DNA of 7,280 nt from a virus. Taxonomy: Duplodnaviria; Heunggongvirae; Uroviricota; Caudoviricetes. The translations under genes were made by a program, and so were the position numbers. Numbering within the stretch: the first letter of the stretch is position 1; the number at the start of each line of letters is the position of its first letter. Below, piece after piece: positions 1,659-7,280 of the stretch. The notes under the pieces are model-generated. The model saw only the letters and a list, made by a program, of their open reading frames with translations. It made no database searches and was not told the origin of the DNA. The DNA lies in IMG/VR virus record IMGVR_UViG_2541047771_000008, positions 1 to 7,280 of that record; one strand, given 5' to 3'.

Positions 1659-1868
1659 ATGCGTGAAATAAATGAAGATCGCGTAATCCGTGAGGATGAA
1701 TGTCGTAAGTTAACTGGAGTGTGTCGCACTACACGCTATGAACTGGAGAAAAAAGGGAATTTCCCGTCACGCCGTAATCTGGGCGGTCGTTCTGTAGGTT
1801 GGCTGCTGTCCGAGGTTATGGAATGGGTTAAAAGCCGGGATCGCATTAATTCAGGCAAGGCAGCGTAA
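1659..1868 (+). CDS. alpA: AlpA/Vis-family helix-turn-helix regulator (prophage transcriptional activator / excision regulator)
   Basis: 69-aa ORF; the segment CRKLTGVCRTTRYELEKKGNFPSRRNLGGRSVGWLLSEVMEWV matches the AlpA family pattern (HTH followed by FP-x-P...G-x-RSV-x-W...EV-x-W). A weak AGG lies 8 nt upstream of ATG 1659. The position just after int is typical for P4-like elements and PICIs. Confidence 0.88.
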   Translation: MREINEDRVIREDECRKLTGVCRTTRYELEKKGNFPSRRNLGGRSVGWLLSEVMEWVKSRDRINSGKAA

Positions 1869-1895
1869 AGGGGAGCATATGACATATAAAACAAA

Positions 1896-1915
1896 GGCGA
1901 CCGGGGGCGGTCGCC
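1896..1915 (-). terminator. intrinsic terminator hairpin for the minus-strand mini-operon (possibly also a weak stop for alpA)
   Basis: Perfect 8-bp GC stem GGCGACCG / CGGTCGCC with loop GGGG. On the minus strand the hairpin is followed by a U-rich tract (complement of 1879-1895 gives UUUGUUUUAUAUGUCAU). On the plus strand no U-tract follows. It lies about 70 nt past the stop of the minus-strand gene ending at 1983. Confidence 0.5.
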
Positions 1916-1982
1916 AATGGATACACACTAAACTTGAACGCATCACCAACAATGCCACATTTGCGGCTGGTGGGCAATGTGA

Positions 1983-2156
1983 TCAGTCAGATTTGGTTCG
2001 TTCCAAGGTTTGCAACGAGAGCTTTTTCCTGTGCTCTTTAAGGAATTTCTCAAGAGCAAAAGCACATGGCGCGAATCTTTCTGATTCATGCTCTATCTTT
2101 CTGCGCCGTCTTTTCCGTGCCGGTGATAATGTTTTGGTCAATTCTTTATCGGTCAT
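1983..2156 (-). CDS. small highly basic protein (57 aa), unknown function
   Basis: Minus-strand ORF; the start is chosen at the second ATG (2156) because AGGA sits 7 nt upstream, whereas the ATG at 2171 has no SD. Translation MTDKELTKTLSPARKRRRRKIEHESERFAPCAFALEKFLKEHRKKLSLQTLERTKSD is K/R/E-rich and predicted helical. It sits second in an operon after the RHH gene. No family recognised by eye. Confidence 0.5.
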   Translation of the reverse strand: MTDKELTKTLSPARKRRRRKIEHESERFAPCAFALEKFLKEHRKKLSLQTLERTKSD

Positions 2157-2213
2157 TGTGTTGTCCTGCATAGCAATGCGCCGTAGTTACTCACACCACG
2201 GCGCTGGTGATGG

Positions 2214-2393
2214 TTACTCCTGCTCTTTGGCCTTGCGGCGCTGGCGGCGTTTGATCTCGCCTTTAACGGCAGTAACTATAAATTGCGCCTTGCTTTCACC
2301 TTCATCTAAATTTTTTTCTAAGTCTGCAACAACATCATGCGGGAATCTGGCATTTAACTGTTGCGACTTATTATTTGTTGAACCTGTTGCCAT
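2214..2393 (-). CDS. ribbon-helix-helix (Arc/Mnt/CopG-like) DNA-binding protein, 59 aa
   Basis: Minus-strand ORF starting at ATG 2393 with SD AGAGAGGA 7 nt upstream; the longer 117-aa version from the ORF track has an implausible N-terminus. The segment QQLNARFPHDVVADLEKNLDEGESKAQFIVTAVKGEI follows the RHH layout and resembles P22 Arc (QFNLRWPREVLDLVRKVAEENGRSVNSEIYQRV, recalled from memory): beta-strand, helix A, G-x-S turn, helix B. It is followed by a basic tail. Confidence 0.72.
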   Translation of the reverse strand: MATGSTNNKSQQLNARFPHDVVADLEKNLDEGESKAQFIVTAVKGEIKRRQRRKAKEQE

Positions 2394-2414
2394 TACTGAA
2401 TCCTCTCTAAGTTG

Positions 2415-2504
2415 GTGCGATTCAGTATACACAAAAAAAATTTCAGAGAAAGGCTTGAAGTGCGATTCACTTGCTGATAGGTTAAAAACGAATGGTGCGA
2501 TGCA
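2415..2504. promoter_or_regulatory. divergent promoter/operator region with three direct repeats GTGCGAT(T/G)CA
   Basis: Repeats at 2415-2424, 2460-2469 and 2495-2504; the third is embedded in the palindrome GGTGCGATGCACC (2494-2506). On the minus strand a near-consensus -10 TATACT (complement of 2424-2429) abuts repeat 1, just upstream of the RHH SD. On the plus strand a candidate TTGAAG (2455-2460), 17-bp spacer, TAGGTT (2478-2483) overlaps repeat 2. The promoter hexamers are weak and this is inferred. Confidence 0.4.
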
Positions 2505-2748
2505 CCAAGCAACAACGCCCCGCAGTGGTGGCACACATGCAGGGCGTCTAACCACCAACGATAGCAACAGTATCGAGGCAGCTATGAGAAATTATACCAG
2601 ACACCCGCAAGGGCGGGACTCGCACAACCTGAATAAAGCGGGTGTAAAAAACCAGTTGATCGCCACTGCAAGCCAGGGCTATGATTTATCCGCACCAGCA
2701 AAATCTGGTGCCGGGATTGGCGTCCTGGAAATGTCAAAGGCGATATAT

Positions 2749-2768
2749 GACGCGCCAGCGTCTTTTTT
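2749..2768 (+). terminator. weak intrinsic terminator-like hairpin inside the long leader
   Basis: GACGC-GCCA-GCGTC (5-bp GC stem, 4-nt loop) followed immediately by TTTTTT (2763-2768). No plus-strand ORF with a start codon ends here. It could mark the 3' end of a small RNA or an attenuation point before the Icd-like operon. The stem is short, so confidence is low. Confidence 0.3.
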
Positions 2769-2934
2769 ATCGTCCGCATTCGCTCACATCAAAGTTATGG
2801 TGGGCTGGGCGGGGGCTTCTTCGGAAGCGCCGGTTCCCTTTGACGCCGGTTACGCCAACCCCGTTCAGTCCACCGCCAGCGAAATTGGCGTTTCCTGCGG
2901 TGGAAATTCTTCACTGTCAAAGGAGGCTGCCAAC

Positions 2935-3123
2935 ATGGCTACTATCCCTACCCTTGTACATTCTCAAACCGCCTTTCTCTGGCGCTTTATCATCTTTGGC
3001 GCGTCAGACCATCAAATCATCCACGTCACCGCCTGGACGGAACGTGAAGCGCGTAACCGCTGCCCGTCCGGTTGTGTTGCTGTATTCGCCGCCCGTATTC
3101 GCCAGGGGGTGTGCCATGCCTGA
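2935..3123 (+). CDS. small Icd-like protein (62 aa; prophage cell-division-inhibitor-like), first gene of the replication operon
   Basis: ATG 2935 is preceded by a perfect SD AGGAGG (2921-2926) at 8-nt spacing. Translation MATIPTLVHSQTAFLWRFIIFGASDHQIIHVTAWTEREARNRCPSGCVAVFAARIRQGVCHA resembles the short Icd-like proteins I recall being annotated beside P4-type integrases (memory only, not searched). It is the in-frame C-terminal end of the 414-aa shadow ORF; an alternative upstream start at 2584 (GAGG SD) cannot be excluded. Confidence 0.68.
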   Translation: MATIPTLVHSQTAFLWRFIIFGASDHQIIHVTAWTEREARNRCPSGCVAVFAARIRQGVCHA

Positions 3124-3442: not shown

Positions 3443-3742
3443 ATGAGAACATATATATCTGGCTTGACTGCCAGCGGTTATGCACACCCCAAAATTATCC
3501 CCGGCGCTATTTATCTGGATAAGAACGGTAACAGAGTAACGGTAAAAGAACTGATGTTTGACCGTGTGTATTTTATTCGTGATGGCTATTCATTTCATAG
3601 TTCGCTGAACGTGGAGATCTTTATTTGCAGATTCCGGCGGGAAATCCCGCCTTCCAGAAATAACCATGTGTCATGTATGGATGTTGATAAAAAACTACAG
3701 GAGCTGAAAAACATGATTGCCGCGTGGAGAGAGCAGAAATGA
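3443..3742 (+). CDS. hypothetical protein (99 aa), coupled to the helicase/primase gene
   Basis: ATG 3443 lies 6 nt after the upstream stop, with GGGGA upstream. Its stop TGA (3740-3742) overlaps the next start (ATGA at 3739-3742). It occupies the position held by small early genes such as epsilon in P4; that is positional analogy only, with no sequence recognition. Confidence 0.68.
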   Translation: MRTYISGLTASGYAHPKIIPGAIYLDKNGNRVTVKELMFDRVYFIRDGYSFHSSLNVEIFICRFRREIPPSRNNHVSCMDVDKKLQELKNMIAAWREQK

Positions 3743-5556
3743 AAAAAGCGCCAAATTTAAAACACCAGCCGCGTGACAAAATGACGGAAGTCATCATTTT
3801 TGCGGGTAGTAATGCGTGGGCACATGCGAAGCAGTGGCAGGAACAGGACGGGCGACTGGCTGGCGATAACGTGCCTCCTGTCTGGCTTGGAGAGCAACAA
3901 CTTGCCGAACTGGACAACCTGCAAATCGTACCGGACGGACGCTATCGCGTGCGTCTCTATCAGGCGGGGTTATTGCGTCCGGGGCTTGTTAATACCATCG
4001 GGCAGAAACTGGCAGCGGCAGGTGTCAGGGATGCTGATTATTACCCTGAAGGAATGCACAGCCAGAAACGGGAGAACTGGCGCGAATATCTGGAACGTGA
4101 ACGGGCAGAGCTGGCGGAAAAGAAAAAGGTAGTTGAACTGCCTGTAAAGAAAAAAGAGCGGGTAAAAGACGATAACGCTTCATCACTGGCGCTTAACCAG
4201 ATGGGAGCAAGTCAACGCGGCGAAGTTCTCCTGGCACATTATGGCGGTGAACTGGCGATTCATGCTGACTCTGACACTGTTCACCATTACAACGGCGTTG
4301 TATGGGAGCCAGTACAGGATAAAGAATTACAGCGAGCTATGGCACAGATTTTCATTGATGCGGAGATCAGCTATTCGCAGAACGCCATTAAATCGGCGGT
4401 CGATACCATGAAGTTAAGTTTGCCTGTTATGGGGAATACAGCCCGTAACCTGATTGGATTCAGTAACGGGGTATTTGATACCAGAACAGGTAATTTTCGG
4501 GAGCATAACAAAAACGACTGGTTGTTAATTGCCAGTGAATTACCTTTCAGCCCACCAGCAGAGGGGGAAACGCTGGCAACACATGCGCCGAATTTCTGGA
4601 AGTGGTTACGCCGTTCGGTGGCTGAGAATGACTGCAAGGCGGATCGCGTACTGGCTGCATTATTCATGGTGCTGGCGAACAGGTACGACTGGCAGTTATT
4701 CATTGAGGTAACAGGTCCAGGAGGAAGTGGTAAAAGCGTGATGGCGGAGATTTGCACCATGCTGGCGGGTAAGGCCAACACAGTATCGGCAAGCATGAAG
4801 GCGCTGGAAGATGCAAGGGAACGCGCGTTAGTGGTTGGCTTTTCGCTGATTATCATGCCGGATATGACCCGCTACGCTGGTGATGGGGCAGGAATTAAGG
4901 CCATTACAGGCGGTGACAAGGTGGCAATTGACCCGAAACACAAAGCCCCCTACTCAACGCGTATTCCGGCAGTAGTGCTGGCGGTTAACAATAACGCCAT
5001 GTCATTCAGTGACCGCAGCGGGGGGATCTCACGTCGTCGGGTGATATTCAATTTTTCGGAAGTTGTACCGGAGGACGAACGCGATCCGATGCTGGCGGAA
5101 AAAATAGAAGGTGAGCTGGCGGTAGTGATTCGCCATCTGCTTACACGGTTTGCTGACCAGGACGAAGCCAGACGCCTGTTATATGAGCAGCAGAAATCTG
5201 AAGAAGCACTGGCGATAAAGCGAGAGGGGGATTCGCTGGTGGACTTCTGCGGCTATCTCATGGCGTCGGTAATGTGTGATGGCCTGTTAGTGGGTAATGC
5301 TGAAATTGTGCCATTCAGCCCACGCAGGTATCTCTATCATGCCTATCTGGCTTATATGAGGGCACATGGGTTTGGTAAACCTGTAACACTGACGCGCTTC
5401 GGTAAAGATATGCCGGGGGCAATGGCGGAATATGGCAGGGAGTATATGAAACGGAAAACGAAGCACGGTTTGCGTTCAAACGTGACACTGACGGAGGAAT
5501 CAGAAGACTGGATGCCATCATGTGTATCGGTCACTAATGACGACAGCAAAAATTAA
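3739..5556 (+). CDS. replication protein: P4 alpha-like primase C-terminal (D5_N-like) plus SF3 helicase
   Basis: 605 aa from ATG 3739 (SD GGAGAGAG upstream; the ORF track's GTG at 3724 is a less likely start). Walker A is VTGPGGSGKS, a Walker B-like stretch is FSLIIMPDM, and motif C is VLAVNNNAMSFSDRSGG. The block upstream of the P-loop (NLIGFSNGVFDTRTG) is typical of phage/plasmid primase C-terminal regions. The matching iteron array lies immediately downstream. Confidence 0.9.
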   Translation: MKKAPNLKHQPRDKMTEVIIFAGSNAWAHAKQWQEQDGRLAGDNVPPVWLGEQQLAELDNLQIVPDGRYRVRLYQAGLLRPGLVNTIGQKLAAAGVRDADYYPEGMHSQKRENWREYLERERAELAEKKKVVELPVKKKERVKDDNASSLALNQMGASQRGEVLLAHYGGELAIHADSDTVHHYNGVVWEPVQDKELQRAMAQIFIDAEISYSQNAIKSAVDTMKLSLPVMGNTARNLIGFSNGVFDTRTGNFREHNKNDWLLIASELPFSPPAEGETLATHAPNFWKWLRRSVAENDCKADRVLAALFMVLANRYDWQLFIEVTGPGGSGKSVMAEICTMLAGKANTVSASMKALEDARERALVVGFSLIIMPDMTRYAGDGAGIKAITGGDKVAIDPKHKAPYSTRIPAVVLAVNNNAMSFSDRSGGISRRRVIFNFSEVVPEDERDPMLAEKIEGELAVVIRHLLTRFADQDEARRLLYEQQKSEEALAIKREGDSLVDFCGYLMASVMCDGLLVGNAEIVPFSPRRYLYHAYLAYMRAHGFGKPVTLTRFGKDMPGAMAEYGREYMKRKTKHGLRSNVTLTEESEDWMPSCVSVTNDDSKN

Positions 5557-5567
5557 ACTTATGGAAT

Positions 5568-5800
5568 AACTGTTCACCACTGTTCACCCTGTCATAAATA
5601 TCTTTTATATCAGTATATTATAGGGTGAACAGTTATTTATGAACTGTTCACCAAACTATTCACTGTTCACCTTTTTGATTGTTTATTGAGCTTCAAGGGT
5701 GAACAGTGGTGAACAGTTGGTGAATAGTTTTTGTGAAACTGTTCACCCCTTAACATTATGAATTAAAAGATAAAATATCAAAAGGTGAACAGGTGAAGGG
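5568..5800. repeat. replication origin (P4 ori/crr-type): iteron array of TGTTCACC octamers with AT-rich spacers
   Basis: Perfect TGTTCACC at 5571-5578, 5581-5588, 5645-5652, 5664-5671 and 5740-5747. Reverse-complement GGTGAACA at 5624-5631, 5698-5705, 5708-5715 and 5784-5791. Degenerate copies at 5719-5726 and 5792-5799. AT-rich stretches (for example 5591-5623) lie between copies. The octamer matches the type I iteron bound by P4 alpha protein as I recall it. Confidence 0.82.
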
Positions 5801-5843
5801 TTAAAACGCAAAAATTTTAATTTACTGCTGTGAGATAAAGCCT

Positions 5844-6089: not shown

Positions 6090-6508
6090 CAGCACAGATA
6101 GCGGCTTACGGGCGGCTGGTGGCTGACCCGCAGTTAAAGACCACCAGCAAGGGTACACAAATGACGATGGCTAGTATGGCAGTCCCCCTTCCGTGCAGCC
6201 AGGCAGATGACGGAACGGCGACGATGTGGTTATCCGTCCTGGCGTTTGGCAGACAGGCCGACGCACTGGCAAAACACCACAAAGGCGAACTGGTGAGCGT
6301 GGCGGGTAACATGCAGGTAAGCCAGTGGACAGGCCAGAACGGCGAAACGCGGCAGGGCTGGCAGGTTATCGCAGACAGCGTGATCAGTGCGCGAACAGCG
6401 CGACCGGGCGGCAAAAAAGGCCAGCAGGGGCAGGCCACTGACGCACTGAACAGGGCAAAACAACAGTCGGGGAATGATGATCCGTACGGCGATAATATAC
6501 CGTTTTAA
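6086..6508 (+). CDS. ssb: single-stranded DNA-binding protein (SSB family, OB fold with acidic C-terminal tail)
   Basis: 140 aa with SD GGAGAG 8 nt upstream. The OB-fold core aligns by eye to E. coli SSB (GRLVADPQL...WLSVLAFGRQADALAKHHKGELVSVAGNMQVSQWTGQNGETRQGWQVIADSV versus VGNLGQDPEV...[51 protein letters not shown]). A Gly/Gln-rich linker follows, and the C-terminus ...DDPYGDNIPF matches the SSB tip motif (E. coli ends DDDIPF). Confidence 0.85.
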   Translation: MTAQIAAYGRLVADPQLKTTSKGTQMTMASMAVPLPCSQADDGTATMWLSVLAFGRQADALAKHHKGELVSVAGNMQVSQWTGQNGETRQGWQVIADSVISARTARPGGKKGQQGQATDALNRAKQQSGNDDPYGDNIPF

Positions 6509-6525
6509 ATTCTGCAAACAAAAAG

Positions 6526-6554
6526 ATGCCGGAAAAAAATAGATTTTCCGGCAT
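6526..6554. terminator. perfect 11-bp hairpin, probable transcription terminator between ssb and the capsid gene
   Basis: ATGCCGGAAAA-AAATAGA-TTTTCCGGCAT at 6526-6554. A clean U-tract follows only in the minus orientation (complement of 6511-6525 gives CUUUUUGUUUG). On the plus strand the hairpin is preceded by an A-tract with no U-tract after it. It may be bidirectional or protect ssb from leftward read-through. Confidence 0.45.
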
Positions 6555-6725
6555 GCTACATAAATCCCGACCAAAGGAAGTAAATACATTAACACGAATT
6601 ATCAGCACTGAAGTTGTCACGGCATATTTTATACAACATTGCACTTGGTTGCATGTATTCGCATAGCAGACATCGGTAATAGAATATATTCACAATTATT
6701 TGTAATGAATGTAAAGAGGATGAGT

Positions 6726-7280
6726 ATGGTTGACTTATATTCGCCTACACAGCTTGTGCAGGTGGCTAATGCTGAAGATGTGCAAAAAAAATTAAATGCG
6801 TTGTTTACCAGTTTGTTTTTCACTCGCTCGGTAATGTTTGAATCGAGAGACATTATTCTTGATACGATCGACGATCCAAATATCCCGATCGCGGCGTTTT
6901 GCTCTCCTATGGTGGGCAGTAAAGTTTCACGAGATGAGGGATACGAATCAAAAACAATTCGCCCTGGCTATATGAAACCGAAAAGCAGCATTGATCCAAA
7001 TAAGTTAGCTGTGCGCCCTGCTGGTGTATCACCTGAGCAATACAATGCTTTTGGAGCGCGTAATATTAAAGTTAAACAGGCGATTGTAAATCAGGCTAAA
7101 GCTATTCGTGCACGTATTGAATGGCTTGCCGTTCAGGCAATCACAACGGGGAAAAATATCATTGAGGGCGATGGTATTGAACGTTATGAGCTGGACTGGA
7201 ATATTAAACCACAAAATATCATCACTCAGTCTGGCGGTGCTGAGTGGTCAGGTAAGGATAAAGAAGCTTTTGATCCAAAT
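6726..7280 (+). CDS. major capsid protein, lambda gpE family (5' portion; gene continues beyond the window)
   Basis: Open frame from ATG 6726 to the window end (185 codons, no stop), with SD AAGAGGA 5 nt upstream; an in-frame ATG at 6720 would give MSMVD..., mirroring the lambda E N-terminus MSMY. Recalled lambda gpE blocks match: IRPGYMKPK versus FTPGYVKPK, and NIITQSGGAEWSGKDKEAFDP versus NITQSGGTEWSKRDKSTYDP. Not in the ORF track because it has no stop in the window. Confidence 0.82.
   Translation, partial: MVDLYSPTQLVQVANAEDVQKKLNALFTSLFFTRSVMFESRDIILDTIDDPNIPIAAFCSPMVGSKVSRDEGYESKTIRPGYMKPKSSIDPNKLAVRPAGVSPEQYNAFGARNIKVKQAIVNQAKAIRARIEWLAVQAITTGKNIIEGDGIERYELDWNIKPQNIITQSGGAEWSGKDKEAFDPN

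What the first reader, a model, noticed from the sequence alone, without database searches (positions are those of the whole stretch)
1879..2393. Self-contained minus-strand mini-operon: Arc/Mnt-like RHH protein plus 57-aa basic protein, convergent with alpA
Two tiny genes (59 and 57 aa), each with its own SD, are transcribed leftward from the divergent promoter region and stop at a strong GC hairpin at 1896-1915. They sit between alpA and the replication operon. The first has a clear Arc-like beta-helix-helix signature (QLNARFP...GES...). The second is very basic (RKRRRRK) and matches nothing I recognise. The layout recalls P22 immI, where the RHH repressor Mnt is divergent from Pant-arc-ant, so this could be the element's immunity/maintenance repressor with a co-factor. 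Alternatively it could be a miniature toxin-antitoxin-like or abortive-infection pair carried by a satellite.
Basis: partly seen in the sequence, partly recalled or inferred. Interest (0 to 1): 0.6.

Follow-up and report, generated by a model that had tools for sequence, protein, structure and literature searches.

The report
Island repressor operon embedded antisense
A leftward two-gene operon in an E. coli phage-satellite island encodes what is very probably the island's own operator-specific repressor plus an Escherichia-only 57-aa protein of unknown role, and both genes lie antisense inside a long leader reading frame that selection keeps open.

Summary
Both minus-strand ORFs (2393-2214, 59 aa; 2156-1983, 57 aa), their Shine-Dalgarno sites and the terminator at 1915-1886 are real, and both ORFs show purifying selection.

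The window is an EcCICFT073-type PICI. ORF1 belongs to the YlcI/YnfO (DUF3950) family and has a ribbon-helix-helix (RHH) sequence pattern. It sits between alpA and the replication operon in satellites across Enterobacterales.

Three sites of the form GGTG-N5-CA(C) overlap its own promoter and the divergent rightward promoter. Their 5-nt core changes together with the RHH beta-strand residues in more than 15 specificity classes, independently of AlpA and ORF2. ORF1 is therefore very probably the island's operator-specific repressor. This is inferred from sequence comparison; nothing was tested by binding or reporter assay. The literature I could search names no such repressor for Gram-negative PICIs.

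ORF2 is an orphan confined to Escherichia (21% of complete E. coli genomes). It is a fixed cassette behind any type of RHH gene. It is not a recognisable toxin or defence gene, and its function is unknown.

Both genes lie antisense inside a 414-codon plus-strand ORF (1879-3123). This ORF is the counterpart of P4 eta, and selection keeps it open.

The toxin-antitoxin and abortive-infection readings are not supported.

The parts
1659..1868 (+). alpA (AlpA/Vis-type activator-excisionase), convergent with the operon
   Evidence: Pfam Phage_AlpA 2.9e-16. AlpA is the activator of EcCICFT073 (PMC6092414).
1879..3123 (+). 414-codon eta-like leader ORF. It starts 11 nt after the alpA stop behind a GGGGAG Shine-Dalgarno site, runs antisense through ORF2, ORF1 and the operator region, and ends as the Icd-like protein.
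   Evidence: The frame is open for 291-628 codons in all 16 E. coli loci and in nearly all other loci. NNT|CAN codon pairs are avoided in ylcI: 2/191 against 38% elsewhere, p = 5e-34. The P4 eta precedent is described in PMC10111431.
1886..1915 (-). Intrinsic terminator of the leftward transcript (stem 1915-1896, T-run 1895-1886)
   Evidence: The same kind of terminator follows ORF2 in the related loci.
1983..2156 (-). ORF2: 57-aa basic, predicted helical protein with the conserved core ESERFAPCAFALEKFLKE
   Evidence: Its only family match is phrog_21027. PGAP annotates it as a hypothetical protein.
2164..2167 (-). Shine-Dalgarno site (AGGA) of ORF2, 7 nt before the ATG at 2156
   Evidence: Sequence. 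The AGG motif and the ATG are conserved in 11 distinct loci.
2178..2204 (-). Conserved intercistronic hairpin (10-bp stem, no U-tract) between ORF1 and ORF2
   Evidence: z-score -2.1. It is conserved in all ORF2 loci, with G-U variants.
2214..2393 (-). ORF1: 59-aa RHH protein of the YlcI/YnfO (DUF3950) family, the putative island repressor
2401..2407 (-). Shine-Dalgarno site (GAGAGGA) of ORF1
   Evidence: Sequence. The motif is conserved across loci.
2414..2425 (.). Operator O1 (GGTGCGATTCAG), directly downstream of the leftward -10 element
2424..2429 (-). -10 element (TATACT) of the leftward promoter P_L, conserved as cagTATAC in almost all loci
   Evidence: Inferred from conservation; the consensus scan did not report it.
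2455..2483 (+). Rightward promoter P_R, TTGAAG-N17-TAGGTT, the counterpart of P4 PLE. It lies inside the eta-like ORF.
   Evidence: The -35 TTGA(A/C/G)G and -10 TAnnnT keep the same spacing across all loci. This is an inference: the match is 7 of 12, below the threshold.
2459..2470 (.). Operator O2 (AGTGCGATTCAC), filling the spacer of P_R
2494..2506 (.). Operator O3 (GGTGCGATGCACC), at the predicted start site of P_R
2638..2973 (+). 336-nt in-frame insertion relative to the near-identical TCM3e1 element. It carries a promoter-like site (2656-2685), isrK/seqA-like RNA (2692-2768) and C4/CI-like RNA (2793-2880). This is context, not part of the operon.

Best explanation
This is the leftward arm of the regulatory switch of an EcCICFT073-type phage-inducible chromosomal island (PICI).

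Shown from sequence and comparison:
- A transcription unit runs from a conserved -10 element (TATACT, 2429-2424), through ORF1 and ORF2, to the terminator at 1915-1886.
- ORF1 is a YlcI/YnfO-family protein with an RHH pattern.
- Three sites GGTG-N5-CA(C) lie at 2414-2425 (O1), 2459-2470 (O2) and 2494-2506 (O3).
- Their core covaries with the ORF1 beta-strand residues.

Inferred:
- ORF1 binds these sites as a dimer or a higher oligomer.
- O1 covers the start of its own transcript, which gives autoregulation.
- O2 fills the spacer, and O3 covers the start site, of the rightward promoter TTGAAG-N17-TAGGTT (2455-2483). That promoter drives the Icd-like and replication genes.
- ORF1 therefore keeps the early operon off while the island is resident, and it sets the island's immunity specificity. 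It would do the job that Stl/Rpr does in Gram-positive PICIs.

ORF2 is a real, Escherichia-restricted, basic helical protein. It is carried as a fixed cassette (hairpin, Shine-Dalgarno site, ORF, terminator) exactly 58 nt behind whatever RHH gene is present. Its function is unknown. My best guess, held at low confidence, is an accessory nucleic-acid-binding factor made together with the repressor, not a toxin.

Both genes lie antisense inside the 414-codon plus-strand ORF 1879-3123. This ORF is the counterpart of P4 eta: coupled to alpA, kept open by selection, and ending in frame as the Icd/Kil-like protein.

Inferred switch: when the helper phage turns on alpA, AlpA-driven transcripts are translated through this ORF. 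That would protect them from Rho, let them reach the replication genes, and let them collide with leftward transcription, so that repressor synthesis falls.
For: Family and fold of ORF1:
- NCBIfam YlcI_YnfO_N 1.5e-17.
- Weak RHH Pfam hits in A2 members: PSK_trans_fac in 10 members, CB_ParB_C in 9.
- hhalign against Arc gives P = 7.7e-4, aligning the strand and helix A.
- The AlphaFold2 model has helices at 19-30 and 35-58 and an unmodelled N-terminal strand, as expected for a monomer of an obligate dimer.

Conserved position:
- ORF1 sits between alpA and the Icd/primase operon in E. coli PICIs including EcCICFT073 itself.
- It sits in the same place in P4-like satellites carrying psu/delta and in most of the 48 loci from other genera. 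The Pectobacterium/Dickeya-type loci L015-L022, which have no alpA downstream of ylcI, are the exception.

Operators:
- All three copies lie in the intergenic region and nowhere else in the window.
- The architecture is the same in all loci.
- The operator core is identical for the same beta-strand across genera. QQLNARFP pairs with GTGCGATTCAC in Escherichia, Citrobacter, Morganella, Proteus, Pectobacterium, Dickeya, Xenorhabdus and the P4-like loci L004-L008.
- The core differs for other beta-strands: QMTTVRIP with GTGTATTTCAC, QKLQARAP with GTGGAGTCCAC, QALKARVP with GTGGGCCACAC, and so on.
- All three copies change together.
- Mantel p is about 2e-4. The partial correlation is 0.35 after controlling for the helices and the flanking DNA.

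Natural swaps:
- Window against L009: AlpA 99% identical, RHH 51%, operators different.
- L003 against L010: AlpA and ORF2 100% identical, RHH 59%, operators different.
- L009 against L010: AlpA 57%, RHH 100%, operators the same.
- An Arc-like replacement RHH in L011 comes with its own palindrome, GGTAATTACC, present twice.

Coding evidence:
- Nucleotide diversity by codon position in ORF1 is 0.30/0.25/0.56.
- pN/pS values are.
- The ORF2 core varies almost only at third codon positions.

Eta-like ORF.

Literature:
- AlpA-dependent expression of the gene after alpA in EcCICFT073, and the statement that a global repressor in Gram-negative PICIs is 'unclear', are in PMC6092414.
Against: - No binding, transcript or phenotype data exist. 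P_L and P_R are inferred from conservation only, and the consensus scan did not report them.
- The gene and its operators are adjacent, so part of the covariation could reflect shared descent. The concerted change of three separate sites and the swaps argue against this.
- ORF2 shows only moderate constraint outside its core, and its role is a guess.
- In Pectobacterium-type loci the long antisense frame is not continuous with Icd, so the eta-like coupling is not universal.
- In EcCICFT073 the island cycle is known to depend on AlpA. No derepression phenotype has been reported for this gene.
Confidence: 0.7

Rival explanations
1. A miniature type II toxin-antitoxin or abortive-infection pair: ORF1 is an RHH antitoxin that autoregulates the operon, and ORF2 is the toxin or effector.
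For: The order RHH gene then small gene, with autoregulatory operators at the promoter, is the usual type II TA layout. Some ORF1 homologues hit the RHH antitoxin family PSK_trans_fac weakly. The spot downstream of ylcI holds a BrnT/BrnA cassette in L026.
Against: - ORF1 occurs without ORF2 in every non-Escherichia locus and is followed there by a terminator.
- At 59 aa, ORF1 is only the DNA-binding domain plus a basic tail. It has no toxin-binding extension.
- ORF2 pairs with at least 8 YlcI specificity classes, with 100-aa variants, with a DUF3950-type protein and with unrelated Arc-like RHHs, all at the same 58-nt junction.
- ORF2 has no Pfam, NCBIfam or PADLOC match.
- ORF2 is not hydrophobic.
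- Two of the three operators lie on the divergent promoter, not on the operon's own promoter.
Confidence: 0.07
2. The minus-strand ORFs are non-coding shadows of the long plus-strand ORF. The real gene is the 414-aa eta/Bro-like protein, and PGAP annotates that strand in many genomes.
For: The plus-strand frame is open over the whole region in nearly all loci. Third codon positions coincide, so conservation of one frame mimics conservation of the other. PGAP calls BRO-N or Icd-like pseudogenes over ORF2.
Against: - pN/pS is lower in the minus-strand frames: 0.39 against 0.50 for ORF1 and 0.455 against 0.67 for ORF2.
- In ORF1, diversity at codon position 1 exceeds that at position 2.
- ORF1 matches a curated protein family.
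- The start codons, Shine-Dalgarno sites and terminators of the minus-strand genes are conserved.
- The beta-strand of ORF1 covaries with the operators.
- ylcI persists in Pectobacterium-type loci, where the plus-strand frame is short.
- The N-terminal 235 aa of the plus-strand ORF match no family and are rich in Cys and Ser.
Confidence: 0.03
3. ORF1 is a DNA-binding protein whose main job is not repression of the island's early operon. It might act on helper-phage DNA (interference or derepression), or on packaging as a cos-region factor, because K-12 ylcI sits next to cos/nohD. It might also activate P_R.
For: The family namesake YlcI lies divergent from cos and the terminase gene nohD in DLP12. 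Satellites commonly encode proteins that target the helper. No experiment links ORF1 to P_R.
Against: All three cognate sites lie on the island's own divergent promoters, and there are none elsewhere in the window. O2 sits between the -35 and -10 elements and O3 at the start site, positions typical of repression. Diversification into many specificity classes, each matched to its own cis sites, is the signature of an immunity repressor and not of a factor aimed at a conserved helper target.
Confidence: 0.1
4. ORF2 is selected mainly for being translated. Translation would keep the leftward transcript from Rho termination, so that it extends antisense across the 5' part of the eta-like ORF up to the alpA stop. 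On this reading it acts as an antisense or transcriptional-interference arm, and the peptide matters little.
For: The N- and C-terminal thirds of ORF2 vary freely, and the C-terminus is replaced in the 64-aa variants. The terminator lies within about 10 nt of the eta-like start codon. In other genera the gap between ylcI and alpA is short and no ORF2 is needed.
Against: An 18-residue core is conserved with almost only synonymous change. pN/pS is 0.455. The cassette is kept intact in 1153 genomes.
Confidence: 0.1

Closest known systems
P22 immI region (Mnt and Arc RHH repressors at the divergent Pmnt/Pant promoters)
   Same: A small RHH repressor is transcribed divergently from the operon it controls. 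Its operators overlap both promoters, and it autoregulates. The ORF1 strand QLNARFP resembles the Arc strand QFNLRWP. The 100-aa variants carry an extra helical segment, as Mnt carries a tetramerisation domain (inference).
   Different: Membership of the Arc/Mnt Pfam family was not reached. There are three single GTG-N5-CAC sites, not one 21-bp operator. The controlled operon is the satellite's Icd/replication operon, not an antirepressor gene. The gene lies antisense inside another ORF. Details of P22 are from my own knowledge.
P4 immunity/left-operon control (vis - eta/kil - PLE - seqA - CI RNA; Forti et al. 1999 as summarised in PMC10111431)
   Same: The plus strand has the same layout. An alpA/vis homologue is followed by a coupled long ORF with an internal promoter and an in-frame short C-terminal product. 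In this window it also carries isrK/seqA-like and C4/CI-like RNAs.
   Different: P4 has no antisense gene and no room for one: vis ends at 8764 and seqA starts at 8692. No YlcI homologue was found by tblastn in the phage collection. Here about 700 nt holding the RHH operon and three operators are interposed. Thirteen related islands, including EcCICFT073, gave no isrK/C4 match at Rfam's gathering thresholds.
Stl/Rpr master repressors of SaPIs and Gram-positive PICIs
   Same: The genomic logic is the same. The repressor gene lies between the int side and the replication side and is divergent from the operon it silences (PMC6092414).
   Different: The protein is unrelated: a 59-aa RHH against a large HTH protein. 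No evidence exists for inactivation by a helper-phage protein. In Gram-negative PICIs induction is known to go through AlpA.
YlcI (DLP12) and YnfO (Qin) of E. coli K-12, DUF3950
   Same: Same NCBIfam family. The size is the same and so is the N-x-R-F-P strand motif. A sister variant in L067 reaches Pfam DUF3950.
   Different: K-12 ylcI sits at the right end of a lambdoid prophage, divergent from cos/nohD. It is not in a satellite switch, and its function is uncharacterised.
P1/P7 immI (c4 RNA - icd - ant)
   Same: The rightward operon of the window starts with C4-type RNA and an Icd-like ORF.
   Different: In P1 the operon is controlled by C1 at Op51. Here an RHH with its own operators takes that place. 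P1 details are from my own knowledge.

Membership tests
YlcI/YnfO family (NCBIfam NF041551; Pfam DUF3950) | Score above the curated cut-off of the family model | tested here: met
   NF041551 scores 63.3 bits against a cut-off of 30, E = 1.5e-17, covering residues 9-50. Pfam DUF3950 is not reached by the window protein, but it is reached by the positional equivalent in L067 (28.3 bits against 25).
Ribbon-helix-helix (Arc/MetJ/CopG) superfamily | Strand - helix A - G-x-S/T turn - helix B topology | tested here: inconclusive
Ribbon-helix-helix (Arc/MetJ/CopG) superfamily | Detectable sequence or profile relationship to established RHH families | tested here: inconclusive
   hhalign against Arc gives P = 7.7e-4 with 33% identity over 36 columns (probability 25%). 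Against Mnt the result was not significant. Sub-threshold Pfam hits to the RHH families PSK_trans_fac (best 0.0011, 10 of 42 members) and CB_ParB_C (9 of 42). No PDB sequence hit.
Ribbon-helix-helix (Arc/MetJ/CopG) superfamily | Binds repeated short operators through the beta-ribbon, so specificity residues lie on the strand | tested here: met
   This holds at the level of sequence covariation only. Three repeated sites are present, and their core tracks the strand residues across more than 15 classes and across natural swaps. Physical binding is not testable here.
Type II toxin-antitoxin system | Antitoxin and toxin genes conserved as a pair | tested here: not met
   ORF2 is absent from all 48 loci from other genera and from L004-L008. 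In E. coli it follows unrelated RHH types.
Type II toxin-antitoxin system | Second gene belongs to a known toxin family; antitoxin has a toxin-neutralising extension | tested here: not met
   ORF2 has no Pfam, NCBIfam or PADLOC match. ORF1 is 59 aa and has no extension beyond the RHH domain and a basic tail. Toxicity itself is not testable here.
Known anti-phage defence systems (PADLOC) | Match to a defence-system protein model | tested here: not met
   No match for either protein at E <= 0.1.
P4 eta/kil-type nested leader gene (applies to the overlapping plus-strand ORF 1879-3123) | Long ORF starting next to the alpA/vis stop, containing the internal early promoter, in frame with a short C-terminal product | tested here: met
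   The ATG at 1879 lies 11 nt after the alpA stop and has a Shine-Dalgarno site. P_R lies inside the ORF. The ATG at 2584 and the Icd-like end are in the same frame. The first start codon lies -70 to +90 nt from the alpA stop in 16 of 17 loci where alpA is nearby. P4 layout.
P4 eta/kil-type nested leader gene (applies to the overlapping plus-strand ORF 1879-3123) | Translation of the long ORF prevents Rho-dependent termination of transcripts from the upstream promoter | not testable with these tools
   Only indirect evidence is available. Selection keeps the frame open, and a 336-nt indel is in frame.

The most novel reading that the evidence does not exclude
The YlcI-type RHH would be the missing master repressor of Gram-negative PICIs and of many P4-like satellites. 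Its complete antisense embedding in the alpA-coupled eta-like ORF would form a convergent-transcription toggle. In the resident state, repressor transcription and binding at O1-O3 block the early operon. In the induced state, AlpA-driven, translated read-through silences the repressor gene and overrides its operators. The many operator and beta-strand classes would be heteroimmunity groups that let several islands share one cell. ORF2 would be an Escherichia-specific modulator of this toggle, for example by acting against AlpA or on the antisense RNA duplex.
Probability: 0.3. Interest if true: 0.8.

Novelty: new variant of a known kind. Interest (0 to 1): 0.62.

Why it matters
Gram-negative PICIs and P4-like satellites are present in a large share of enterobacterial genomes. 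They move virulence and defence genes. [quoted passage not shown] I found no later description of such a repressor in the library I could search.

This work gives a concrete candidate. It is a conserved small RHH gene with three cognate operators on the divergent early promoter, with specificity classes that can be read from the sequence. That makes the question directly testable by EMSA, reporter fusions and cross-immunity assays between natural swap pairs.

The complete antisense overlap also gives a clean natural case for studying how two strands co-evolve. One strand encodes a protein under purifying selection. The other is kept open as a reading frame, with a 38-fold avoidance of NNT|CAN codon pairs.

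The result has an annotation consequence. ORF2 is in about 21% of complete E. coli genomes and is annotated inconsistently: as a hypothetical protein, as a BRO-N or Icd-like pseudogene on the wrong strand, or not at all.

Tried and rejected
- Profile searches of both families against PDB sequences found nothing.
- Pfam gave no hit for either window protein. PADLOC gave nothing.
- DNA and tblastn searches of the phage collection found nothing, so P4 itself has no detectable homologue.
- An exhaustive profile search for ORF2 in 1.8 billion representative proteins found only 9 clusters. One of them (P0172) is a eukaryote-like repeat protein and looks spurious.
- I considered an arginine-rich, N-protein-like RNA-binding motif for ORF2. 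I dropped it because the basic run is not conserved in variants such as P0174 and L064.
- I considered that IsrK-locus biology (AntQ upstream of isrK in Gifsy-1) might explain the divergent genes. The layouts differ.
- I checked whether the 'putative repressor' of EcCIMP1 was this gene. It is a PerC-family protein.
- I expected the antisense frame to be continuous with Icd everywhere. It is not in the Pectobacterium-type loci and a few others: frame class 1 in 18 of 33 loci.
- The idea that K-12 ylcI would have the same three-operator architecture was not borne out on reading its upstream region.
Full report
**What the window is.** The genes, in order, are:
- a tyrosine integrase (1-1239)
- alpA (1659-1868)
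- the two minus-strand ORFs
- an Icd-like ORF, a 106-aa ORF, DUF4222 and a D5/primase-type protein (3739-5556)
- an iteron field
- an 81-aa ORF and SSB
- the start of a major capsid gene

A 99.9% identical element lies between cspD and clpS in E. coli TCM3e1. It continues with capsid, decoration and small-terminase-like genes. The prototype Gram-negative PICI, EcCICFT073, has the same layout and the same two small minus-strand genes. The window is therefore an EcCICFT073-type phage-inducible chromosomal island.

**The observation.** ORF1 (2393-2214, 59 aa) and ORF2 (2156-1983, 57 aa) are present. Each has a purine-rich Shine-Dalgarno site 7 nt before its ATG. The unit ends at a canonical intrinsic terminator: an 8-bp stem with 7 G-C pairs followed by UUUGUUUUAU, z-score -3.4. 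A conserved 10-bp hairpin without a U-tract lies between the two genes. PGAP annotates both genes in RefSeq genomes.

**ORF1 is a real, widespread, RHH-type protein.**
- It matches NCBIfam YlcI/YnfO and phrog_949.
- It has homologues in Klebsiella, Salmonella, Enterobacter, Citrobacter, Morganella, Proteus, Hafnia, Yersinia, Pectobacterium, Xenorhabdus and other genera.
- Across 52 distinct gene sequences, nucleotide diversity by codon position is 0.30/0.25/0.56.
- pN/pS is 0.39, lower than in any antisense frame.
- The alignment shows N-x-K-S, a strand ending in R-x-P, a helix, an invariant G/E-S turn and a second helix with a basic tail.
- The monomer model has the two helices and an unmodelled N-terminus.
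- Profile comparison with Arc aligns the strand and helix A at P = 7.7e-4.
- Family members give sub-threshold hits to two RHH Pfam families.
- Fold searches were uninformative.

I treat the RHH assignment as probable but not proven.

**Conserved position.** In E. coli PICIs, in P4-like satellites with psu, delta and an alpha-type primase, and in most of the 48 loci from other genera, the gene lies in the same place. It is convergent with alpA and divergent from the Icd-like/replication operon. The Pectobacterium/Dickeya-type loci L015-L022 are the exception: no alpA lies downstream of ylcI there. Outside Escherichia the gene is monocistronic, usually followed directly by a terminator or by cargo genes.

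**The operators.** The roughly 190-nt intergenic region has one architecture in all loci. Reading away from the ORF1 start, it contains:
- the Shine-Dalgarno site
- site O1
- the conserved TATAC motif (the -10 element TATACT on the minus strand)
- an A-rich tract
- TTGA(A/C/G)G
- site O2
- a TAnnnT motif 17-18 nt after the -35 element
- site O3
- conserved 5'-UTR hairpins

In the window the sites are GGTGCGATTCAG, AGTGCGATTCAC and GGTGCGATGCACC. Nothing similar occurs elsewhere in the window. The frame GTG-N5-CAC is constant, and the five central bases are class-specific:
- QQLNARFP pairs with CGATT. This holds in Escherichia, Citrobacter, Morganella, Proteus, Pectobacterium, Dickeya, Xenorhabdus and the P4-like loci L004-L008, although the surrounding DNA has diverged.
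- QMTTVRIP pairs with TATTT.
- QKLQARAP pairs with GAGTC.
- QALKARVP (EcCICFT073) pairs with GGCCA.
- QTVAARVP pairs with TTCAA.
- LQLSVRLP pairs with GTGTT.
- QSVTVRVL pairs with TAAGA.
- Further classes follow the same rule.

All three copies in a locus change together, and O3 may lie in either orientation. Similarity of the strand predicts similarity of the operator core: r = 0.48, Mantel p about 2e-4, partial r = 0.35 after removing the effects of the helices and the flanking DNA.

Natural swaps decide which protein the sites follow:
- The window and PA45B (L009) share 99% identical AlpA but have different RHH proteins and different operators.
- CFT073 and EcPNK004 share identical AlpA and identical ORF2 but differ in RHH and operators.
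- PA45B and EcPNK004 have 57% identical AlpA but identical RHH and identical operators.
- Where the YlcI-type gene is replaced by an Arc-like RHH (strain 155, L011; weak Pfam Arc hit), the operators are replaced by a different palindrome, GGTAATTACC, present twice.

This is strong comparative evidence that ORF1 binds O1-O3. From their positions I infer autoregulation (O1 covers about -7 to +5 of the leftward promoter). I also infer repression of the rightward promoter (O2 lies in its spacer and O3 at its start site). Both promoters are inferred from conservation. The window's rightward promoter matches the consensus at only 7 of 12 positions, and the scan missed it.

**ORF2.**
- Its family is tiny. 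There are 51 clusters at 90% identity, all Escherichia or Shigella. Only 9 representatives turn up among 1.8 billion proteins.
- It is common: the ORF2 region plus spacer is in 1167 of 5426 complete E. coli genomes, with up to four copies per genome.
- It always starts 58 nt after the stop of the preceding RHH gene. This holds whether that gene is a YlcI type of any specificity, a 100-aa variant, a DUF3950-type protein or an Arc-like protein.
- The conserved DNA block begins in the last codons of the RHH gene and includes the hairpin, the Shine-Dalgarno site, ORF2 and the terminator.
- The core ERFAPCAFALEKFLKE changes almost only at third codon positions. Overall pN/pS is 0.455. The termini vary, and one variant has a different C-terminus.
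- The model is helical, with pLDDT about 89 in the core.
- It matches no curated family, solved structure or defence model.

These facts argue against a toxin-antitoxin pair and against a specificity-linked co-repressor. I can only say that ORF2 is a real accessory gene co-transcribed with the repressor. A nucleic-acid-binding modulator of the switch is my best guess, held at low confidence.

**The other strand.** The plus-strand ORF 1879-3123 (414 codons) starts 11 nt after the alpA stop behind GGGGAG. It runs antisense through ORF2, ORF1 and the operators, and it ends as the Icd-like protein.
- The equivalent frame is open for 291-628 codons in all 16 E. coli loci, whatever RHH type they carry.
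- It is open for 100-568 codons in nearly all other loci.
- Where alpA is within 800 nt, the first start codon lies -70 to +90 nt from the alpA stop in 16 of 17 loci.
- Third codon positions of the two strands coincide, so synonymous sites are shared.
- Within ylcI, a T at the third position before a CAN codon would create an antisense TGA. It occurs 2 times in 191, against 38% elsewhere (p = 5e-34). Control genes of the window show 15% against 31%.
- Tyrosine is almost absent from the family (0.19%).
- The N-terminal 235 residues of the plus-strand product match no family.

This arrangement is the known P4 one. According to PMC10111431, citing Forti et al. 1999, P4 eta has these properties:
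- It is translationally coupled to the alpA homologue vis.
- It contains the constitutive promoter PLE and the seqA and CI RNAs.
- It has a truncated in-frame product, Kil.
- Its translation prevents termination of transcripts from the upstream late promoter.

I confirmed the P4 layout. P4 has no room for an antisense gene and carries no homologue of one. The island family has therefore interposed a repressor operon and three operators inside the eta-like leader while keeping that leader open. I could not read the Forti paper itself.

**Model.** In the resident island, ORF1 is made from its autoregulated promoter and holds the early promoter off. In EcCICFT073 the helper phage induces alpA, and AlpA activates its own promoter and the gene after alpA (PMC6092414). 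Transcripts are then translated through the eta-like frame into the replication genes. They run head-on into the repressor operon, which should lower repressor synthesis. The binding, the repression and the interference are all inferences.

**The RNA immunity module is extra.** The window's isrK (75 bits) and C4 (82 bits) RNAs, with their own promoter-like site, lie on a 336-nt in-frame insertion. This insertion is absent from the otherwise near-identical TCM3e1 element. None of 13 related loci, including EcCICFT073, has either RNA at Rfam's gathering thresholds. The RHH-operator module is the conserved layer of control, and the RNA layer is optional.

**Comparison and novelty.** RHH repressors at divergent promoters are a well-known kind (P22 Mnt/Arc), and so are eta/kil-type leaders. 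What I found no description of:
- the assignment of the YlcI/YnfO family to this role in satellites
- its many operator specificity classes
- its complete antisense embedding in the leader ORF

The 2018 PICI paper calls a global repressor 'unclear'. A 2023 survey describes this zone as holding Bro-network genes and immunity RNAs, and its discussion notes that all non-hypothetical genes of one such island are unidirectional. I rate the finding a new variant of a known kind.

Noticed in passing
window 1879-3123 (+): A 414-codon ORF is coupled to the alpA stop, is antisense to both small genes and the operator region, and ends as the Icd-like protein. It is the counterpart of P4 eta. Selection keeps the frame open: NNT|CAN codon pairs occur 2/191 in ylcI against 38% elsewhere. 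Its N-terminal 235 aa match no family.
   Followed up: yes
window 2638-2973: A 336-nt (112-codon, in-frame) insertion relative to the 99.9% identical TCM3e1 element. It carries the promoter-like site TTGATC-N18-TATGAT (2656-2685), isrK (2692-2768) and C4 RNA (2793-2880). Thirteen related islands, including EcCICFT073, gave no isrK/C4 match at Rfam's gathering thresholds.
   Followed up: yes
window 2511-2583: Two hairpins (2515-2547 and about 2555-2572) sit in the 5' UTR downstream of O3, followed by GAGG and the ATG at 2584. The motif GCCCGG...CCGGGC-TTCTAACCA is conserved across genera. It may be a translational control element for the short Icd/Kil-like ORF.
   Followed up: no
window 5565-5802: At least 11 copies of GGTGAACAG(T) in both orientations lie between the primase gene and the 81-aa ORF. 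This is the iteron-type replication origin typical of PICIs.
   Followed up: partly
L072 (NZ_CP148328.1, 10,790 bp circular record): A record deposited as a plasmid is in fact a circular PICI. It carries int, alpA, a 101-aa YlcI/YnfO variant, Icd-like, DUF4222, primase and a capsid-protease fusion. ORF2 is present but not annotated. The record may be an excised island.
   Followed up: partly
L010 3272-3799, L011 3307-3900 and many E. coli genomes: PGAP annotates the plus strand over ORF2 as a BRO-N or Icd-like pseudogene, or annotates nothing. Annotation of this region is inconsistent across the 1167 genomes that carry it.
   Followed up: partly
L026 4246-4828; L019 and L022 4595-6075; L044 4192-4455: In other genera the space downstream of ylcI holds cargo on the same strand. 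L026 has a BrnT/BrnA toxin-antitoxin pair. The Pectobacterium loci have kinase- and phosphatase-like genes. L044 has an 87-aa ORF that abuts the ylcI stop codon. This looks like an accessory-gene hot spot.
   Followed up: partly
L064 2141-2443, L066 2138-2443, L032 3998-4303: These 100-aa YlcI variants carry an inserted helical segment (ENPLVSSLDALAQVEKIG...) before the conserved basic tail. It may be an oligomerisation domain like that of Mnt.
   Followed up: no
L070 6252-6446 (K-12 ylcI) and 6447-6834: The family namesake ylcI in DLP12 is divergent from the lambda-like cos site and nohD. Its product has a clear RHH pattern (RNIRFP...GSGNFS...). I did not see the three-operator architecture upstream of it.
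   Followed up: partly
L013 7057-7125: An Rfam int-alpA RNA motif (RF02996, 52 bits) lies between int and alpA in the Morganella locus. The window's 420-nt int-alpA spacer gave no such match.
   Followed up: no
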